IMG/VR virus record: IMGVR_UViG_3300046060_000085
Coordinates: 1 to 39,443 of that record
DNA length: 39,443 nt
Strand: one strand, 5' to 3'
DNA from: a virus
Lineage: Duplodnaviria; Caudoviricetes
Shown here one piece after another: positions 10,777 to 39,210 of this stretch. Each line of letters starts with the position of its first letter. Within the stretch, counting starts at the first letter, position 1. A program made the position numbers and the translations under genes. The notes under the pieces were generated by a model. That model worked only from the letters and a program-made list of their open reading frames with translations, had not been told where the DNA came from and searched no databases.

Positions 10777-12571
10777 ATGAGCCTCGAAACCAAAGACCCC
10801 GACACAAACAGCGAGATGACCGACGAACAGACTATCACCGTCGGCGACACCACCGACGGCCAGTCCTACCAGCTCCCCGTCGAGGACGTCCTCACCGGCC
10901 GCGCGTTCGCCACCGGCAAGAGCGGCGCAGGCAAATCCAACACCGGCTCAGTTATCGCAGAAGAACTCCTCACACGCGGCCACCCTCTGCTCATTGTGGA
11001 TACCGACGGCGAGTACTGGGGGCTGAAGGAGGAATACGAAATCCTCCACGTCGGCGCGACCGACGAGTGCGACCTCCAGGTCGGGCCCGAACACGCGGGG
11101 AAGCTCGCCGAGCTCGCGCTCGACCAGCACATCCCGATCATCCTCGACGTCTCCGGCTACGTCGATAGCGACACGAGCGACGCACTCGTCCGGGAGACCG
11201 CCCCAGGAGTTGTTCGCGCGCGAACAGCAGGCGATGCAGCCGTTTTTGATGCTCGTCGAGGAGATCCACGAGTACATCCCGGAGGGCGGCGGTCTTGACG
11301 AGACAGGCGAGATGCTCATCCGGGTCGCGAAGCGCGGCCGGAAGCGCGGCCTCGGCATCATGGGGCTCAGCCAGCGCCCTGCGGACGTTAAGAAGGACTT
11401 CATCACGCAGGCTGATTTCCTCGTCTGGCATCGCCTCACGTGGGACAACGACACCGACGTCGTCAAGCGCGTCGTTGGCAGCGAGTTCGGTGACGAGGTG
11501 CAGGACCTCGCGGACGGCGAAGCGTTCGTGCAGGCCGACTGGAGCGAGGTGGACGTCGAGCGTGTGCAGTTCCGACGAAAGCACACGTTCGACGCGGGCG
11601 CGACGCCTGGCCTCGACGATGTGGCCCGGCCGGAGTTGAAGAGCATCGGCGAGGATCTCGTCGAGGACTTGGACGAGATCTCGGCACGCGAGGAGCGCCG
11701 CCTCGACCGCGTCAGCGAACTCGAAGCCCAGCTGGCGGAGAAAGACGCACGGATTGACGACCTCGAACAGGAACTTGAGAATAAGGAGGATATCGCGGAC
11801 GCCGCCCAGCAGATGGCGGCAGCGCTCCAGCAGGGCACGGACGGGGAGCGCGCGGACGAGGTCCCAGGGGACTGGGAGGAGACACTGGAGGCGAAGAACG
11901 AGCGGATCCACGACCTCCAGGAGGACCTCGCGGCCGTTCGCGAGGAGCGCGACGAGTTGCGGGAGCGCGCCGAGGCGGCCGAATCGGAAGCAGAGCGGCT
12001 GGGGTCCTACCAAGAGCGCGTCGAGCAGGCCGAGGAGATCGAGGAGCAACTAGCGAAGGCCCGTGAGGTCCTCGGCGTGGAGGGTAAGGCCGAGGCTGGC
12101 CAGCCTGGTGCCGCCGACGGAGACAACAGTGAGCTTCGCGCCGAGCTCAACCAGCGCGAGGAGACGATCGCCGAACTGGAGGCGGAGATCGACCGTCTCC
12201 AAGAGCAGGGTTACTCGCTCGACGAGGAGTTCGAATCGAAGATGGACTTCATCCAGCACGAGGCCGTCCGCGAGGAGATTGAGCGCGCGGCCTCGAAGTC
12301 GAAGTGCAAGGCCGACCACACGTGGGACGTTCTCTCGGTGCTGATCGACCAGGAGTCGCCGACTACCGACGAGATTGCGACCTACTGTGACGTCACGAAG
12401 ACGTCAGTCCAGAACATCCTCTCGAAGCTCGCCGAGCAGAACGTCGTCGCGAAGAACACGAAGCGGGGGAAGGCGCGCTACGAGCTGAACGTCGACGGGA
12501 TGCGGAACATCATCCAGCAGCAGCGGAAGCGGAGCGAGATCTCGAACCTCAAAGAGCAGGTGAAGAGCTGA
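10777..12571 (+). pseudogene. HerA/DUF87-like ATPase + coiled coil + wHTH, split by a +1 frameshift at ~11201-11204
   Basis: Walker A GKSGAGKS in the first frame; Walker B MLVEEIHEY and SQRPA in the second; deleting one C from GCCCCAG gives ETAQELFAREQ. Confidence 0.8.
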
Positions 12572-12997: not shown

Positions 12998-13846
12998 ATG
13001 TCCATTTCAGAGCGCATTCCAGGAATGAAACCCGGCCATCGGCTACGGAACATCGGCATTGGCTTCCTCTACTTTTTCGTCATCGCAGGCGTCCTCGGCG
13101 CCGTCACGCCCGACCCCGAAGGCGGATCGGAGACTGCACCCGAAACCACGACCGCGGCCGACGCGGTGACCACCACCGCGGACATGGCGACCGATGGCGG
13201 CACCACGACCGCCGCGACGACCGCCGTCGCAACCACAGCGGAGACGACCACGACCGAAGCGCCGACTACGACGACCACGACGGTTGCGCCAGCGGAGGAC
13301 GGTGCATCCTACGAGTTCTCCGGATCAGGCAACGATGTCACCGATAGCTTCAGCACGGAGGGCGGGTTCGTCGTGCTCGACTTCCAGCATGACGGGAGTT
13401 CGAACTTCCAAGTGAAAGCCGTCTCCAGCAACGGCGATGAGGAGTACCTCGTGAACCACATCGGGAACTACGACGGCGAGGTGGCGGTCTATCTCCCGAG
13501 CGAGGACTACCGGCTCGACATCACGGCGGACGGCTCGTGGAGCGCGGACGTGACTCAGCCGCGATTCAACCAGCAGGATGTCGAGGACCTCCCGGCGAGC
13601 GCTGACGGTAAGCACGCCTACTGGCTGGGGCCGTTCGAGTTCGAGGGCGGTGAGGAAGTGACGTTCGAGATCAAGGGCGACTCGCAGGCAGCCGTCTGGC
13701 TCGCTACCACGCAGGGCGAGAAGGTAGATCTCCTTCACAATGAAATCGGGCCGTACGAGGGATCGGCGCTTGTCACCGATAGTGGGTTCGGACTGATCAT
13801 CATCGAAACGGATTCGGCCGACTGGCGGATCGAAATCAAGCGGTAA
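12998..13846 (+). CDS. Membrane-anchored surface protein (moron)
   Basis: Basic N-terminus, TM helix IGIGFLYFFVIAGVLGAV, Thr-rich linker, two similar beta domains; AT-rich promoter at 12965-12975. Confidence 0.85.
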   Translation: MSISERIPGMKPGHRLRNIGIGFLYFFVIAGVLGAVTPDPEGGSETAPETTTAADAVTTTADMATDGGTTTAATTAVATTAETTTTEAPTTTTTTVAPAEDGASYEFSGSGNDVTDSFSTEGGFVVLDFQHDGSSNFQVKAVSSNGDEEYLVNHIGNYDGEVAVYLPSEDYRLDITADGSWSADVTQPRFNQQDVEDLPASADGKHAYWLGPFEFEGGEEVTFEIKGDSQAAVWLATTQGEKVDLLHNEIGPYEGSALVTDSGFGLIIIETDSADWRIEIKR

Positions 13847-13876
13847 AAAGTCGCATTCCGAATAAACTGCCTACTA

Positions 13877-14143
13877 CTATCGGGTTCCCTGGGGCTGCTG
13901 TTGCGCAGCTTGCTGGGCGCGAAGCTGTTGACGGTTGTCGAAGAGCTCGGTAACGAGCTGGTTCACCCGTCGTTCGAGCGTGTTCTCGATGACGTTCTCG
14001 CCGAACTCCTCAACTAAGACCTCATAGGCGGTTGTTCGGGATGCGTCGAGTTTGAGCTCGACATCGGTGGTCTCAAACCCCAGCTCCGTCTCCCTCTCGG
14101 TCGCTGCTTCGGCGTCGTCAGTCTGTTCGCTGTCGTCGGTCAT
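13877..14143 (-). CDS. Hypothetical protein at end of tail operon
   Basis: Acidic, coupled. Confidence 0.7.
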   Translation of the reverse strand: MTDDSEQTDDAEAATERETELGFETTDVELKLDASRTTAYEVLVEEFGENVIENTLERRVNQLVTELFDNRQQLRAQQAAQQQPQGTR

Positions 14144-14448
14144 TGTTCGTTCTCGATGGTGATGGCGTTCGTGTAGGCTGTCTGGTCGTCCTCGAAGGCC
14201 GCCGACAGATTGGCGAGTTCGGCCGCAAGTTCGTCTTTCCCCTGTGGAAAGTTGTCTTCCGCCTCGTCGTGTTCAACCGTCAGCACGACGCGGTTGTCGG
14301 CCTCACTGTCGCTCGGCTGATAAACGATGTTCGACCAATCGACGCGATATTCGGCTGTCGCGTCCAGGTCGTAGAGTTCGCCGACCAGGGTCGCTAATTC
14401 ACTTCGGGACAATCCTTCGACAGTTCCGGTGTACTTAAGTACGAGCAT
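14140..14448 (-). CDS. Hypothetical protein, possible fibre-associated chaperone
   Basis: ATG at 14448 (MLVLKY); follows the fibre gene. Confidence 0.7.
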   Translation of the reverse strand: MLVLKYTGTVEGLSRSELATLVGELYDLDATAEYRVDWSNIVYQPSDSEADNRVVLTVEHDEAEDNFPQGKDELAAELANLSAAFEDDQTAYTNAITIENEQ

Positions 14449-14456
14449 AGGTCTGG

Positions 14457-14527
14457 GTTCTGTTTCGAGGCCGCACCACCGGCCCAACGCATCAAGGCCC
14501 CTTCACGCGTGGCTGGGGCGACAGAAC
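14457..14527 (-). ncRNA. Type III hammerhead-ribozyme-like RNA with variant core
   Basis: GUUCUGU-C / GCCCC..GGGGC / CUUGAUGCGUUG / GGCCG..CGGCC / UCGAA-ACAGAAC; loop I and loop II are complementary. Confidence 0.55.
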
Positions 14528-14579
14528 ACCGTCGTCGGCTCGTGACTCGCGGCGTCGGGCCGCGAACATCGACCGGAGT

Positions 14580-15920
14580 TCATGTCAGTGTGGTCACGTT
14601 GCCGTTGTCGTCACGAGCCTTTATTTCGCCGTTCTCTTTGAAGATAGCTGGCGAGGTCCCGCCGCCGTCACCATACCAGATTAGCTGGCCGTTGTCAGCG
14701 AACTCGACCGTCTCACCGTGGGCTTCGATATTTGCGTCCGCGTTCAAGACAATCTTCCCGTCGTAGTTTGGTGAGATCTCCCCGCGAATCGTGACGTTCT
14801 GTCCTGAGAGGGTCGCCGGGCCACCGACCGAGAACTCGCCACTCACGCCGCCACCGCCGAGCGAAACGCCCTCTGGGTCGATGGTCGCGCCGGGCGTTCC
14901 GGGGGCCGTACTTGAGATTCGGATACCCGTACTGCCCGTTTGAATGTCGAGTGGGTAGGTCCCTGCACCGTCGAGAACGAGTCCCGAGTTCAATACTTCG
15001 ATGGGACCACCTTCGTTCCAGCGCTGGAGTGGCACCGAATTTGCAGCGTCTCTCACTTGCACGGCGTCGTCGCCCTTCCCCGAACTAACCAACGTGAGGT
15101 AATTATCAGTCTGAATCTTTCTCACGTTCTGGATATTATTGCTATTCATATCCAGATTGACTCCGCGAACGTCGAGCGGCCCATTCTCGTTCGCGCGAAG
15201 AACGTCTCGGTCGTTCGCCCCATCACGCAACCCGACGTACGAACCCCCACTGCCGTCCGAAATCAGCCGCATCGAGCCGTTGCCAGCGAAAATCTCACTG
15301 ACGCCATAAAGCCTGTTCTCGTTGAGGTAGAGATGGTCATCGCGGATCTCGACACCACTACCGCTCGACCCAGATTCGACGACGAAGCGCGAGTTCGCCG
15401 ATTCAAACGACACCTCAAACTCGTCATCATCGCCCAAGTAAAGCGGCTGGTCGTTGCCGAGGCGCTCGACCCGCCCAACGGTCCGCTGGTCGCGTGCGGC
15501 GGTGACGCCACTCCCGTCAGTATCGAACTCCCAGAGCGGGAGCCGCCGGTCGTCGGCCGCGAAGTCTCCGGCGAGCCCGACAATCACGCCGTCCGACTCA
15601 GTCTTATTCCAGCCGACGAACACCGTCTGGCCGTTCGTCGAGGCCGCAAGATCGATATTCGTCGACGTGTCCCGTGCGACCCACGCACCATGGACGAACG
15701 CTTCTCCTGGGTCAATCGCCACTGAGAGACTGTCGGCGGCCGACGACTCGGCGAACGCGTTCAGTAACGATTCGTCCAGGTCAGGATCCTCGTCGGCGAG
15801 CGCAACTTCGCCGCTCGGGACGACGTATCCAGGGGTGAGGCCGCCGCCTTCAGCGATGGCGACCGCCGTCTCGTAGGCATTTCCGGAGTGTCGGATGCTC
15901 GGGTTTGCTTTGTCAGTCAT
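14580..15920 (-). CDS. Tail fibre / receptor-binding protein
   Basis: Distal tail position; Gly/Asn/Ser-rich beta repeats; lower-GC C-terminal part. Confidence 0.78.
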   Translation of the reverse strand: MTDKANPSIRHSGNAYETAVAIAEGGGLTPGYVVPSGEVALADEDPDLDESLLNAFAESSAADSLSVAIDPGEAFVHGAWVARDTSTNIDLAASTNGQTVFVGWNKTESDGVIVGLAGDFAADDRRLPLWEFDTDGSGVTAARDQRTVGRVERLGNDQPLYLGDDDEFEVSFESANSRFVVESGSSGSGVEIRDDHLYLNENRLYGVSEIFAGNGSMRLISDGSGGSYVGLRDGANDRDVLRANENGPLDVRGVNLDMNSNNIQNVRKIQTDNYLTLVSSGKGDDAVQVRDAANSVPLQRWNEGGPIEVLNSGLVLDGAGTYPLDIQTGSTGIRISSTAPGTPGATIDPEGVSLGGGGVSGEFSVGGPATLSGQNVTIRGEISPNYDGKIVLNADANIEAHGETVEFADNGQLIWYGDGGGTSPAIFKENGEIKARDDNGNVTTLT

Positions 15921-34884: not shown

Positions 34885-37800
34885 TTAGGTTCCGCCTCCT
34901 GGGTCCAACCGCGCCGATCCGAGCTCGTGACGGTTCCCGGAGAGGCCGAACACCTCCCGCGCTACGGGAAGCCAGTCGGTCAGGGATTTGGATTCCTCAA
35001 CGAGAGCCCGCAAGCGCCGGGTTAACGCTACTTCGACGCTGTCGTTACCAGTTAGAACCGATAACGCCTGTGTCAAAGTAGCGATTTCCGCCGTGTAGAC
35101 CACTCCAGACCGCTGTTCGTACGCTCCCGCGTCAAGCAGTCCGATGGCTTCCAGATCGGCTACCCACCGCCGGACCGTGCGCTCCGTGACGTCCAAGCCG
35201 TGGAACTGGGCGAGTCGGTGGATCGCCTCGATGTTGAACTCGACGCCGTCCGCGGTCGCGTCGCCGCCCGTGGTTTCGATGAGTGTCTCAGCGCGGAAGC
35301 CATCGGGGCCGTCCCCCTCGCCGGCGCTCGCGATGACATCCGCAAGATCGAGAGCGCGGTCGGCGACCGGGAGGAGTGCGTGGAGGGGGTCGGCGAGCTC
35401 TTCGAACTGGCAGACCTCGTCGACGGGCACGTCGGTCGGCACGTTCGTCAGCAGGTAGGCGTGCTTGGTCTCGTCGGCGAGCAGCGGCCGAATCCGGTGG
35501 ATGACCTGCTCGAGTTCCTTCTCGCGCGTCTCCTCGAAGAGCTCGCCGACGAGGCCCGTGTAGTGCTTGGTCGGGACCGCCCGCCCACGGCCGTGGTCGT
35601 CTTCGTAGAGGAGCTTGCGGTAGACCGGTGGGTTCGAGCAGTCCTGCCGGGTCGAGTGTTCGGTGCCGCCGACGCGGAGATCGTCGTGGTCCTGGGAGAG
35701 CAGCGCGGCCTCGCGTTCGAGATCTTCGACGTTCGCGTGAGGCGCGCCGAGGCAGACGACGGCATCACATTCCGTCCGGTTGAGGCCGCGAGCAGCGTGA
35801 TAGTGCAGCCACTCGACGGACTCGGGGATGTCGAGTATCTCGCGGGCCTCCTGGCGACCGACGACGAGCAGGTTGTCGTGAACGGTCGCGAGCTTCTCGA
35901 CCGCGCGCTCGACACGCTCGCGGAGGCTCTCGGTCTGCTTGAGCGTCGACCAGTGGTACTGGCCGTTGAGGACTTGCGTCACCTGCAGGTTGGCGTCGAG
36001 CGGCTCGTCACCAGTGACTGCGACGTGATCGGTCGGGACGCCGTAGAGGCCGGCGACTTTCTGGGGAACTGCGGTGGCGTCCAAGACGAGGGGCTTGCTG
36101 GGGAGATCGCTCACCAGTGGGAGTGACTCGTAGGTGAGTCGGGCTCCGTCCTCGATGTCGGCGTGGAGGTAGGCGGAAGCGCGTGCGGCCTCGGCGGTCT
36201 TGCCGACGAGGAAGTCGGTGCGTTCGTCCCAGCCGCAGCCGTCCTCCTGATTACAGACACGCCCACCGTCCTGGTGAGTAAGGTCGCCCCCGCAACGCGG
36301 GCATTGTTCGAGGAAGTCGGACGCGGCGATGGCCTTGCGAGCCTGATCACTCGGAAGTCCGGCCTCCATCGCGGCTGCGAGCAGTGCGTCGACGGCGAGG
36401 GGTTCGCCGTTCCAGTCGTCCTCGCGCATGCGCTTGAGGATGGTTTCGTTGTACTCGAGTTTCGCCTCGGCGAGCGTTTCCGCTACGAGCTCGCGCTCGA
36501 CGACGTAGCAGGTGCGCTTCCGGTAGCCCTCGCTGGGCATGCCCTTGAACTCCTTTTTCGTGGTCTGCTCGACGTCGTCGGGGTCGACGTCTGCGGGAAG
36601 ATCGTCCGGGTCGACCTCGACCGAGATCAGCTCGCCGTCGACCGCTGGCGGATCGATGGCCGCGAGCGTCAATGGCCCATCGGGATTCGTGAGCGCGTCG
36701 ACGAGCCGGTGGGCGAACGCGGCGAGTTCGCCGAGTACGTCGGGAGCACCCGCGTAGTTCCCGATGCCTTCGAGGGCGTTGCCGAGTCGGACGAGGTCCT
36801 CGACCGAGAGATCCTGTTCGGAGCGTAACGCCCCAGGGGTTTCGTCGATGAGGACGTCGCGGTCGGGGCCGTTCGCGGGGTTGCGGATGGTCTTGAGCGT
36901 CTGGTATTCGTGAACGCCGGCGATCTGGTCGGCGCTGGCGGCCTCGGCGAACTGGTCGAGCCACGCGCAGTTGCCGTCCTCGTCATGGCCGGGGAGCTCG
37001 TCGCCGAGGAGGGTGTGTGCGCGGACAGGGCCCAGCTGGTCGGCGAGCGCCTCGTATCGCTTGCGGTCGGGGTGATCCTGCCCGAGGTCGTACACGGGAC
37101 ACACGTGCGCGCAGTCGCCGTTCGGGTGGGTTGGGCAGTCCTCGTCGGCGTGGTCGGCGTCCATGCAAACGGGGTCGCGCTTCTGTGCGCCGCCCTTTAA
37201 GTGGAAGTAGCGGTCGGGAGTGGCGTCGTCTTTGATGAACTCGCGAGCTTTCTCGTGCTTGTCGAAGAGCACGGCGTGGGGGCGGTCGCGAGTTGCCGCG
37301 GCCCGAGCGGCGTTCGTAGTTTTCCCTGCGCCGGCGTCGTCGCCGAAAATGACGGGGCCAGTGGCGTCGAGGAACTCGTCGTAGCGTTCGCCCTCGAGGG
37401 CGGCCCACCGCTCTTCGCGGTCGAACGACTCGGCGTCGCGAACTGGCGGGTCACACTCTTCGACATTCCACTGCGTGTTCGACGCGTTGCGATCTGGAGT
37501 CGTAGTAACCAGTTCGGGGATGTCGAACCCGAGTTCGCGAAGGTGCTCGATGGCCGTGAACCAGAGTTCGCCGCGGGCCCGGCGGGGCGAGGCGTTGCGA
37601 TGGCTCATCTCGCCCATGTGGATGAGGCTCATCACGACGGGGCCGCCGTAGCCGCCTTCGTCGCCAGTGTCCTGCCAGATGCGGTCGTCGACGATGTTCG
37701 CCGTCCCGTTCGCCGACCGCCCCCACGTCGGGGCGAACGCGCGGTAGCCGTCGCTGGTCGACGCGTTGTCGTTCCAGCTAGCGACAATCGTTCGGTTAGC

Positions 37801-39210
37801 AACGCGGCGAGCGTCGAGGCGGTCGAGCGCGGCGAAGACGTCCCGGATGTCGTCAGTAGTCTCCGTCGACGACGTCGCGCTTGGCTGGTAGTCGTCGAGG
37901 TCGTAGTCCTCGCGAGTAGTCGAGACGTCGTCATCCCGGTCGCGCTGGCTGGTGGCGACCTCGTCGTTCGCGTCGAGGAGCGCGTCTAGGACGTCGGCGT
38001 TCCAATCGCGGATCTCGGTCGGGGTGCCGAGGACGTGGTCGCCGGTCGCGACGCACACGCGCTTGCCGGGATAGATCTCGATGGAGGGGAGGTCGTCGTT
38101 GTCTCCCCAGGGCTCGTCGTCGATCTGCCACGCCGCCTGCTTGACCCCGTCGGGGAGATCGCCGCGGTACTGGGCGTGGACGCCCGCGCCGGACTGGGAG
38201 ACGTCGGCGTACGTCAGGCCGAGATGTTCGAGGATCGCCTCGAAGGCGGGGTGAACCTCGCCGGTCTTGCGGTCGCGGACATCGTCCCCGTCGACGTAGA
38301 CGTAGGGGTCGCTCTCCTGTTGGAGGAACGCGCGGCCGTCGAGGCGGTCGTCGACCTCGGCCATCGCGATGGTTTCGCCGTCGACGTAGTGGCCGGTGTA
38401 GCCCCACTTCCAGCGAGCGTCGCAGTCGCACTTCGCGGCGGTGTCGTGGCCGTCTCTGCTACACTCCGCGGGCGCGTTGCGGTCGCCCCACGGCGCGAAC
38501 GGCTTCTTGTCCCGGTGGCCCATCCACTGCTCGCGGTCGAGGAGTTGCTGCGGCCAGACGCCAGACTCGGGAGTGGCGAAGTTGGCCTCGTTCCACCCAG
38601 AGTTGGTCGGTCGTGCATCGTCGGAGCTGAGGTCCTCCGAGATCTCGGGGTCGGAGTGTGCATCGTCGTGGGTATCTTCTGGGGTGTCGCTAGCCGAGTC
38701 GGTCGCGGTGGTAGGTTGGTCGTCGGGGGTGGCGAGACGAATCGCGGGATTCTCGCTGAGGGTGTCGTCGGCGAGTTCGAGGGCGTCGGTCTCGCGGAGG
38801 GCGTCCCGGAACTCGTAGTCGCTGTAGCCGTGCGCTTGGGCTTGCGCAAGGAGTTCGTCGCGGGGGACGGGCGCGAGGATTTCCTCGTGCCCGAGGCGGC
38901 CCTGGGTCTCCCACATTAACTCGATGACGTCGATGTCCGCGTCGGCTTCGTCGCGGTGCGTGCCAGACTGTTCGTCGAGGTCTGAGCGAGACCGTTCTCG
39001 CGACCTTCTACCGTGGTCCGGGGTGCTACTACTTGTGCTTTCGGGCGAATCGGTGGATTCGGAGGTGTCCTCACGGAGGGCGTCCGCGACCGCGGTCGGC
39101 GACGCGTTGAGTGCGCCCGCGAGTTCCGGGACGTCAGCGTCCGGGTGCTGGTCACGATACTGGGCGACGCGCTCGGCGAGCGAAAGGTCGTCCCCCGTCA
39201 AGGCGACCAC
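34885..39210 (-). CDS. Replication protein: primase-polymerase (AEP-like) + SF2-like helicase + wHTH
   Basis: YVYVDGDDV, YADVSQSGAGVH, IEIY; DAGAGKTT, VLIDE, AARGLN, EQVIHRIR; C-terminal ERTVRRWVADLEAIGLL. Confidence 0.82.
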   Translation of the reverse strand: MVALTGDDLSLAERVAQYRDQHPDADVPELAGALNASPTAVADALREDTSESTDSPESTSSSTPDHGRRSRERSRSDLDEQSGTHRDEADADIDVIELMWETQGRLGHEEILAPVPRDELLAQAQAHGYSDYEFRDALRETDALELADDTLSENPAIRLATPDDQPTTATDSASDTPEDTHDDAHSDPEISEDLSSDDARPTNSGWNEANFATPESGVWPQQLLDREQWMGHRDKKPFAPWGDRNAPAECSRDGHDTAAKCDCDARWKWGYTGHYVDGETIAMAEVDDRLDGRAFLQQESDPYVYVDGDDVRDRKTGEVHPAFEAILEHLGLTYADVSQSGAGVHAQYRGDLPDGVKQAAWQIDDEPWGDNDDLPSIEIYPGKRVCVATGDHVLGTPTEIRDWNADVLDALLDANDEVATSQRDRDDDVSTTREDYDLDDYQPSATSSTETTDDIRDVFAALDRLDARRVANRTIVASWNDNASTSDGYRAFAPTWGRSANGTANIVDDRIWQDTGDEGGYGGPVVMSLIHMGEMSHRNASPRRARGELWFTAIEHLRELGFDIPELVTTTPDRNASNTQWNVEECDPPVRDAESFDREERWAALEGERYDEFLDATGPVIFGDDAGAGKTTNAARAAATRDRPHAVLFDKHEKAREFIKDDATPDRYFHLKGGAQKRDPVCMDADHADEDCPTHPNGDCAHVCPVYDLGQDHPDRKRYEALADQLGPVRAHTLLGDELPGHDEDGNCAWLDQFAEAASADQIAGVHEYQTLKTIRNPANGPDRDVLIDETPGALRSEQDLSVEDLVRLGNALEGIGNYAGAPDVLGELAAFAHRLVDALTNPDGPLTLAAIDPPAVDGELISVEVDPDDLPADVDPDDVEQTTKKEFKGMPSEGYRKRTCYVVERELVAETLAEAKLEYNETILKRMREDDWNGEPLAVDALLAAAMEAGLPSDQARKAIAASDFLEQCPRCGGDLTHQDGGRVCNQEDGCGWDERTDFLVGKTAEAARASAYLHADIEDGARLTYESLPLVSDLPSKPLVLDATAVPQKVAGLYGVPTDHVAVTGDEPLDANLQVTQVLNGQYHWSTLKQTESLRERVERAVEKLATVHDNLLVVGRQEAREILDIPESVEWLHYHAARGLNRTECDAVVCLGAPHANVEDLEREAALLSQDHDDLRVGGTEHSTRQDCSNPPVYRKLLYEDDHGRGRAVPTKHYTGLVGELFEETREKELEQVIHRIRPLLADETKHAYLLTNVPTDVPVDEVCQFEELADPLHALLPVADRALDLADVIASAGEGDGPDGFRAETLIETTGGDATADGVEFNIEAIHRLAQFHGLDVTERTVRRWVADLEAIGLLDAGAYEQRSGVVYTAEIATLTQALSVLTGNDSVEVALTRRLRALVEESKSLTDWLPVAREVFGLSGNRHELGSARLDPGGGT

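What the first reader, a model, noticed from the sequence alone, without database searches (positions are those of the whole stretch)
14457..14527. Hammerhead-ribozyme-like RNA with a variant catalytic core behind the tail-fibre gene
Seen: the minus (mRNA) strand reads GUUCUGU C GCCCC[AGCCACGCGUGAA]GGGGC CUUGAUGCGUUG GGCCG[GUGGUG]CGGCC UCGAA ACAGAAC. It has three perfect stems in type III hammerhead order and a GUC triplet, with the predicted cut between 14520 and 14519. CGAAAC is in the expected place. Loop I GCCAC can pair with loop II GUGGU (5 bp). Known: loop I-II contacts are the hallmark of natural hammerheads, and the canonical core is CUGANGA. Here the core strand is CUUGAUGC(GUUG), so it carries insertions and lacks A9. 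Inference: this is a core-variant ribozyme, possibly salt-adapted or conditionally active, or a non-cleaving derivative. It could process the late mRNA 8 nt before the ATG at 14448 and uncouple the last two genes from the fibre gene.
Basis: partly seen in the sequence, partly recalled or inferred. Interest (0 to 1): 0.85.

Follow-up and report, generated by a model that had tools for sequence, protein, structure and literature searches.

The report
Halovirus hammerhead RNA with altered core
A virus of salt-loving archaea carries, behind a tail gene, an RNA segment predicted to fold like a self-cutting hammerhead ribozyme but with one extra and one swapped base in its core, so it likely cuts its message slowly or only in high magnesium; the extra base resembles halovirus variants known since 2011, while the swapped base is untested.

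Summary
The motif is real. Minus strand 14527-14457 has three Watson-Crick stems (7/5/5 bp) in type III order, GUC, UGA-U-G and CGAAAC, in a 131-nt intergenic gap of a haloarchaeal provirus. A relaxed descriptor scores it 17; none of 975 simulated windows exceeded 15.

A better register restores the G10.1-C11.1 pair and puts UU in a stem II bulge. Two core departures remain: one extra pyrimidine at C3, and A9 replaced by C. The first matches known halovirus variants (Perreault 2011; HF1 group). The second does not: 7 of 7 HF1-group copies keep A9.

No homologue was found, so covariation is untested. Rfam gives no hit, and the lowest-energy fold pairs loop I with the core strand. Best reading: an attenuated hammerhead-derived cutter of the late message (0.5). 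Main rival: a recently inactivated copy (0.27). It works like a hammerhead but fails the consensus-core test. The scan noted other halovirus core variants before, one with A9-to-C (unchecked). New variant of a known kind.

The parts
14457..14527 (-). Type III hammerhead-like RNA, whole element
   Evidence: descriptor hit
14521..14527 (-). Stem III 5' strand (G16.2 = 14522, U16.1 = 14521); pairs with 14463-14457
   Evidence: 7 WC pairs by sequence; present in both competing folds
14519..14520 (-). Predicted cleavage site, C17 (14520) / G1.1 (14519)
   Evidence: GUC triplet at the junction; cleavage inferred, untested
14497..14519 (-). Stem I (5 WC pairs) with 13-nt loop I (14514-14502)
14489..14496 (-). 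Core strand: two pyrimidines (C14496, U14495) where consensus has C3; U4 G5 A6 U7 G8 at 14494-14490; C at position 9 (14489)
   Evidence: consensus as given in PMC7151607
14467..14488 (-). Stem II in revised register: G10.1 (14488)-C11.1 (14467), UU bulge (14487-14486), G-U, 5 WC pairs, 6-nt loop II (14479-14474)
   Evidence: constrained fold; isolated fold
14457..14466 (-). G12 A13 A14 (14466-14464) and stem III 3' strand starting at A15.1 (14463)
14509..14513 (-). Loop I segment complementary to loop II 14479-14475 (predicted kissing contact)
   Evidence: by sequence; no covariation available
14505..14510 (-). Loop I segment that pairs with core bases 14492-14487 (A6 to the first bulge U, including C9) in the competing minimum-energy fold
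14547..14565 (-). 7-bp hairpin between the upstream stop codon and the element; would stay on the 5' product
   Evidence: (z -1.59, 15 of 200 shuffles as stable, so not significant alone)
14580..15920 (-). 446-aa distal tail gene; 'fibre' is inferred from position and a conserved N-terminus with variable C-terminus
   Evidence: phrog_18555, unknown function; N-terminal match to HGTV-1 gene 29 and phiCh1/ChaoS9 proteins
14140..14448 (-). 102-aa ORF starting 8 nt after the element; no relative found
13877..14143 (-). 88-aa ORF overlapping the 102-aa ORF by 4 nt, followed by a T-tract near 13850; no relative found

Best explanation
This is a hammerhead-shaped RNA element in the intergenic gap after the distal tail gene of a haloarchaeal provirus, with an extra base at position 3 and C in place of A9, and it likely acts as a weakened self-cutter that would split the late message only slowly or at high magnesium. 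Shown: the three stems, GUC, U4-G5-A6-U7-G8, G12-A13-A14, a possible G10.1-C11.1 pair, the intergenic sense-strand position. Inferred: loop I docks on loop II; G12 acts as base and the G8 2'-OH as acid, cutting after C14520; the 5' product (tail message) would end in a cyclic phosphate behind a 7-bp hairpin, and the 3' product would carry the 102-aa and 88-aa ORFs behind a 71-nt leader with a 5'-OH end. The extra base and loss of the sheared G12-A9 pair are expected to lower the rate, so only part of the messages would be cut.
For: Null tests. All 17 WC pairs, GUC and CGAAAC are intact while the departures cluster in one 12-nt strand, which is not the scatter expected of long decay (inference). 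Haloviruses carry hammerheads altered at this same spot: U2a G2b U3 in HF1/HF2 and three forms among 7 HF1-group copies. HHmeta cleaves only slowly, reaching about 0.13 per min at 300 mM Mg2+; HHphage lies 13 nt before a start codon and a transcript end maps within 3 nt of its cut site (PMC3088659). Phage hammerheads between genes were shown to cut polycistronic RNA. G12 and G8, the catalytic residues (PMC11300833), are both present.
Against: A9 forms a sheared pair with G12 in the active core. Here C9 can instead form a Watson-Crick pair with G12 in the predicted fold, which would block the general base (inference). 7 of 7 HF1-group copies keep A9. A Xanthomonas phage candidate whose primer label shows U at position 9 is listed among inactive RNAs, though it departs at more than one position. 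In a sTRSV-type hammerhead, single and double changes in the CUGA turn gave low activity apart from the C3-G8 swap (PMC9901934). The hammerhead fold lies 2.6-2.7 kcal/mol above the ensemble, about 1.3% without counting the loop contact. No Rfam match at E up to 10. No homologue found.
Confidence: 0.5

Rival explanations
1. A halovirus hammerhead of the insertion type recently inactivated by A9-to-C; it no longer cuts and persists as an inert or merely structural element.
For: One substitution suffices if the extra base and the bulge were already there. A9 is invariant in 7 of 7 HF1-group copies. C9 can pair with G12 and also strengthens the competing fold. Singleton; absent behind 26 relatives of the tail gene with downstream sequence and in the closest virus found.
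Against: No mismatch in any stem; the structural ORFs scanned match their families over most of their length.
Confidence: 0.27
2. A two-state switch: loop I pairs either with the core strand (off) or with loop II (on), and salt, magnesium, temperature or a ribosome leaving the upstream stop shifts the balance.
For: The minimum-energy fold pairs loop I 14510-14505 with core 14492-14487 in 6 pairs that use the two non-consensus features, C9 and the bulge U; both folds share stem III and differ by about 3 kcal/mol.
Against: The fold is no more stable than shuffles (z -0.63). G+C-rich 70-mers readily offer such alternatives. The on state would still lack A9. No covariation.
Confidence: 0.1
3. C at 14489 is a sequencing or assembly error in an ordinary insertion-type hammerhead.
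For: Single contig, no second copy of the element.
Against: No sign of frameshift errors in the flanking ORFs; the prior for an error at one given base is low.
Confidence: 0.06
4. A chance arrangement of G+C-rich hairpins, picked from a very large scan.
For: No Rfam hit, no homologue, not the minimum-energy fold; about 250,000 windows are scanned.
Against: 0 of 975 simulated windows reach the score; 0 of 119 sequence-matched loci exceed 14 of 18; it is also intergenic, on the transcribed strand, and in a virus group known to carry such variants.
Confidence: 0.04

Closest known systems
HHphage, the type II hammerhead of haloviruses HF1/HF2 and kin (Perreault 2011, PMC3088659; AF222060.2 10292-10359; Rfam RF02276)
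   Same: Halovirus; extra bases between stem I and U4 with U at position 3; GUC site; CGAAAC; intergenic, just before a start codon.
   Different: Type II, early region, before a helicase; keeps A9; scores above the Rfam cut-off (40.2 and 45.4 bits against 37 for the two copies tested); no DNA similarity to this element.
HHmeta, saltern metagenome variant (Perreault 2011)
   Same: Insertion beside C3; hypersaline viral origin; model for slow, Mg2+-dependent cleavage.
   Different: Two-base insertion before an intact CUGACGA; keeps A9.
Type III hammerheads with loop I-loop II contact (Rfam RF00008; pseudoknotted forms in Perreault 2011)
   Same: Order of stems, open end at stem III, possible paired loops.
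   Different: Core not consensus; stem II longer than stem I and bulged; RF00008 does not match at E up to 10.
Bcep176 A6C phage hammerhead (Naghdi 2020, PMC7151607)
   Same: Natural A-to-C change at a conserved core base in a phage intergenic hammerhead, with altered ion preference.
   Different: Position 6, not 9; shown active, better in Mn2+; bacterial phage.

Membership tests
Hammerhead ribozyme, type III (RF00008) | Three helices around a junction in type III order | tested here: met
   7/5/5 WC pairs
Hammerhead ribozyme, type III (RF00008) | NUH site with A15.1-U16.1 pair | tested here: met
   GUC 14522-14520; A14463-U14521
Hammerhead ribozyme, type III (RF00008) | G12 A13 A14 after stem II, closed by G10.1-C11.1 | tested here: met
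   met in the revised register with a UU bulge
Hammerhead ribozyme, type III (RF00008) | Core strand C3 U4 G5 A6 N7 G8 A9 | tested here: not met
   one extra pyrimidine; C at 9; no A follows G8 in any register
Hammerhead ribozyme, type III (RF00008) | Loop I-loop II tertiary contact | tested here: inconclusive
   5 possible pairs; no homologues; competes with a loop I-core helix
Hammerhead ribozyme, type III (RF00008) | Score above the Rfam gathering threshold | tested here: not met
   no match at E up to 10; the model also found 0 of 151 haloarchaeal genomes above cut-off, with no positive control for this model
Hammerhead ribozyme, type III (RF00008) | Covariation of stems among homologues | tested here: inconclusive
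   no homologue found
Hammerhead ribozyme, type III (RF00008) | Site-specific self-cleavage | not testable with these tools
   needs a bench assay
Saltern/halovirus core-insertion hammerheads (HHphage, HHmeta) | Short insertion beside C3 and stem I | tested here: met
   one base here, two in HHphage and HHmeta; HF1 group varies
Saltern/halovirus core-insertion hammerheads (HHphage, HHmeta) | Virus of extreme halophiles | tested here: met
   relatives are haloviruses and Halorussus halobius
Saltern/halovirus core-insertion hammerheads (HHphage, HHmeta) | Rest of core, including A9, intact | tested here: not met
   C9 here; A9 in 7 of 7 HF1-group copies and HHmeta
Saltern/halovirus core-insertion hammerheads (HHphage, HHmeta) | Activity that needs high Mg2+ | not testable with these tools
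   bench assay
Pistol ribozyme | Match to the Rfam model; short core loop and 6-bp pseudoknot (PMC11300833) | tested here: not met
   no Rfam family matches; by eye at most 5 loop pairs and a hammerhead-length core strand

The most novel reading that the evidence does not exclude
A natural hammerhead that cleaves without A9 and is built as a salt or magnesium switch: the swapped C9 and the stem II bulge let loop I lock the core in an off fold until brine-level ions favour loop-loop docking, tying release of the last two late genes to the host's ionic state. With the earlier unchecked A9-to-C note, this would define a halophile-specific core.
Probability: 0.1. Interest if true: 0.75.

Novelty: new variant of a known kind. 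Interest (0 to 1): 0.42.

Why it matters
Perreault 2011 left open whether halovirus core variants are tuned salt sensors or relaxed copies. This 71-nt RNA adds a type III example with a second change at A9, a base treated as invariant. One afternoon's assay would show whether brine conditions relax that rule. If it cuts, the hammerhead consensus and the search models built on it miss a class in halophiles. If it does not, it is an ordinary dead copy.

Tried and rejected
Rfam, whole window and region: no hammerhead, pistol or other match.

DNA homologues. Phages blastn: none, then 2 chance 19-mers. Plasmids: 1 chance piece. Metagenome: 0 with the strict pattern; 119 loci, best 14 of 18. A loose pattern over 401 haloarchaeal genomes matched all 401 and was uninformative.

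One-sequence covariance model R1: 0 of 20 and 0 of 4 virus records; 2 of 151 haloarchaeal genomes, both without the core; no second copy in the window. RF00008: 1 weak hit in 151 genomes, not a hammerhead by eye.

Sequencing runs: none was listed, no RNA holder listed.

Tail-gene relatives: 30 matches in 28 loci, 4 run off the contig; none of the other 26 shows such an element behind the gene (several are near-identical). The closest virus found (63% in the 473-aa tail protein) has the next ATG overlapping the stop.

Idea that the 88-aa ORF is the small Q-rich protein that follows the tail gene in L003 and L004: not supported (BLAST E 6.3; hhalign probability 5%). Atlas look-ups for both ORFs stayed under the 0.9 bar.

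Promoter fusion: no AT-rich box by eye in the gap (68% G+C); the sigma-70 scan does not cover archaea.

An alternative register using the UGA in loop I and a permuted pistol parse were tried by eye and fit worse. Two look-ups for a review of A9 mutant data failed.

Full report
Setting. The window is a provirus record, 85% complete, with integrase, Cdc6-like ATPase, terminase, portal, major head protein and tape measure protein. Its relatives are haloviruses and Halorussus halobius (75% in the Cdc6-like protein). Structural genes run on the minus strand and end with a 446-aa distal tail gene (15920-14580), a 131-nt gap, a 102-aa ORF (14448-14140), an overlapping 88-aa ORF (14143-13877) and a T-tract near 13850. 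The label 'tail fibre' is inferred: the protein has only an unnamed PHROG, a conserved N-terminus and a variable C-terminus.

Observation. A tight descriptor gave 1 hit in the window and 0 in 40 simulated windows, but it was written after seeing the motif. I therefore used a relaxed one covering all three permutations. With G-U allowed it also recovers the annotated HF2 hammerhead. With Watson-Crick pairs only, the motif scores 17; 975 Markov-4 windows gave 31 hits of 11-15 and none above; 807 kb of other halophile DNA gave 2 hits, 12 and 13. A second control: 119 metagenome loci that already match GUC, G+C-rich arms, the variant core strand and CGAAAC reached at most 14 stem pairs, against 18 here. 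Against the motif: Rfam finds nothing at E up to 10, while two HF1-group hammerheads pass their cut-off. The lowest-energy fold is a rod, no more stable than shuffles (z -0.63).

Register. With the three stems enforced, the folding program extends stem II: G14488 pairs with C14467, UU is bulged, then G-U and five pairs follow. This restores the conserved G10.1-C11.1 pair. The core then differs from the consensus C3 U4 G5 A6 N7 G8 A9 - G12 A13 A14 in two ways: two pyrimidines stand where C3 should, and position 9 is C. The program also pairs C9 with G12. In solved hammerheads A9 makes a sheared pair with G12, G12 is the general base and the G8 2'-OH the acid. A Watson-Crick C9-G12 pair would occupy the edge G12 needs; this is my inference. 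That A9 changes are strongly harmful in minimal hammerheads is recalled; two look-ups for a source failed.

Competing fold. The hammerhead-compatible ensemble lies 2.6-2.7 kcal/mol above the total, about 1.3% in four fragment lengths, without credit for the loop contact. The competitor keeps stem III and pairs loop I 14510-14505 with core bases 14492-14487. That helix uses C9 and a bulge U. It may be a built-in off state or an accident of G+C-rich sequence. The 5-pair loop I-loop II match is plausible but weak alone; my hand estimate of chance is about 0.2, and the planned shuffle test was lost.

Precedent. Perreault 2011 (PMC3088659; read: parts 1-3 of 8, passages of the discussion, supplement legends, primer table part 2 of 2, Figure S7 text; Dataset S1 is cut in storage and Text S1 unreadable, so a C9 example there could be missed) reports three saltern hammerheads with insertions near C3. 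HHmeta barely cuts in 15 mM Mg2+ and reaches about 0.13 per min at 300 mM; HHphage of HF1/HF2 lies 13 nt before a helicase start, with a mapped transcript end within 3 nt of its cut site. Naghdi 2020 (PMC7151607, part 1 of 4) spells these cores U2a G2b U3 and G2a C2b C3 and shows an A6C phage variant active in Mn2+. Of 41 phage records matching the HF2 element I aligned 7: the stretch before U4 takes three forms, and all 7 keep A9. A Xanthomonas phage candidate labelled with U at position 9 is among the inactive RNAs, with more than one departure. Roberts 2023 (PMC9901934, passages) found low activity for changes in the CUGA turn except the C3-G8 swap. Zhan 2024 (PMC11300833) and the HF1-group genomics paper (PMC7230728) were read as passages. 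Searches for hammerhead with saltern, halovirus, haloarchaea, core variants, A9C and A9U listed no natural A9C hammerhead; subscription journals are mostly not covered.

Relatives. None was found for the RNA (see Tried and rejected for all counts), nor for either downstream ORF (0 of 231 and 1 marginal of 231 genomes). Behind 26 tail-gene relatives with downstream sequence, and in the closest virus found, no such element appears. The element and both ORFs therefore look like a lineage-specific piece of the variable tail end. Covariation cannot be tested.

Mechanism. Most likely (0.5) it is a weakened cutter that splits part of the late messages after C14520, leaving the tail message behind a 7-bp hairpin and the last two ORFs on a 5'-OH RNA with a 71-nt leader. 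The anatomy is shown; folding, cleavage and effect on expression are inferred. Rivals: recent inactivation by A9-to-C (0.27), a two-state switch (0.1), a base error (0.06), chance (0.04).

Verdict. It works like a hammerhead and descends from one, but fails the consensus-core and Rfam tests, so I do not file it as a canonical member. It shares one trait with a variant class known since 2011 and adds one untested change. Earlier notes of this scan on other halovirus genomes describe further core variants, one with A9-to-C; I could not check them. New variant of a known kind; interest 0.42.

Noticed in passing
window 14565-14547 (-): Perfect 7-bp hairpin 15 nt after the tail-gene stop and 20 nt before the hammerhead-like element.
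   Followed up: partly
window 14511-14504 (-): Loop I holds an 8-nt palindrome that could let two molecules pair loop to loop.
   Followed up: no
L002:10280-10380, L358-L363: HF1-group hammerheads vary just before U4: UGU in 4 of 7, UAU in 1, UG in 2, so position 3 is not fixed in this group.
   Followed up: partly
window 11210-12571 (+): 453-aa ORF with an ATPase-like N-terminal piece, long coiled coil and C-terminal winged helix, on the strand opposite the late genes.
   Followed up: no
window 12998-13846 (+): 282-aa ORF with a membrane anchor and Thr/Ala-rich linker, no family match; looks like a surface protein, possibly for superinfection exclusion (inference).
   Followed up: no
window 34885-39210 (-): 1441-aa ORF with a primase-like stretch at residues 261-444 and no Pfam match.
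   Followed up: no
L003:4610-4792, L004:4480-4671: Small acidic, Q-rich gene directly after the tail-gene relative in two viruses, 52% identical; resemblance to the window's 88-aa ORF was not supported.
   Followed up: yes
L010, L011, L012, L015, L016, L217 downstream of the tail-gene relative: The next gene carries short tandem peptide repeats.
   Followed up: no
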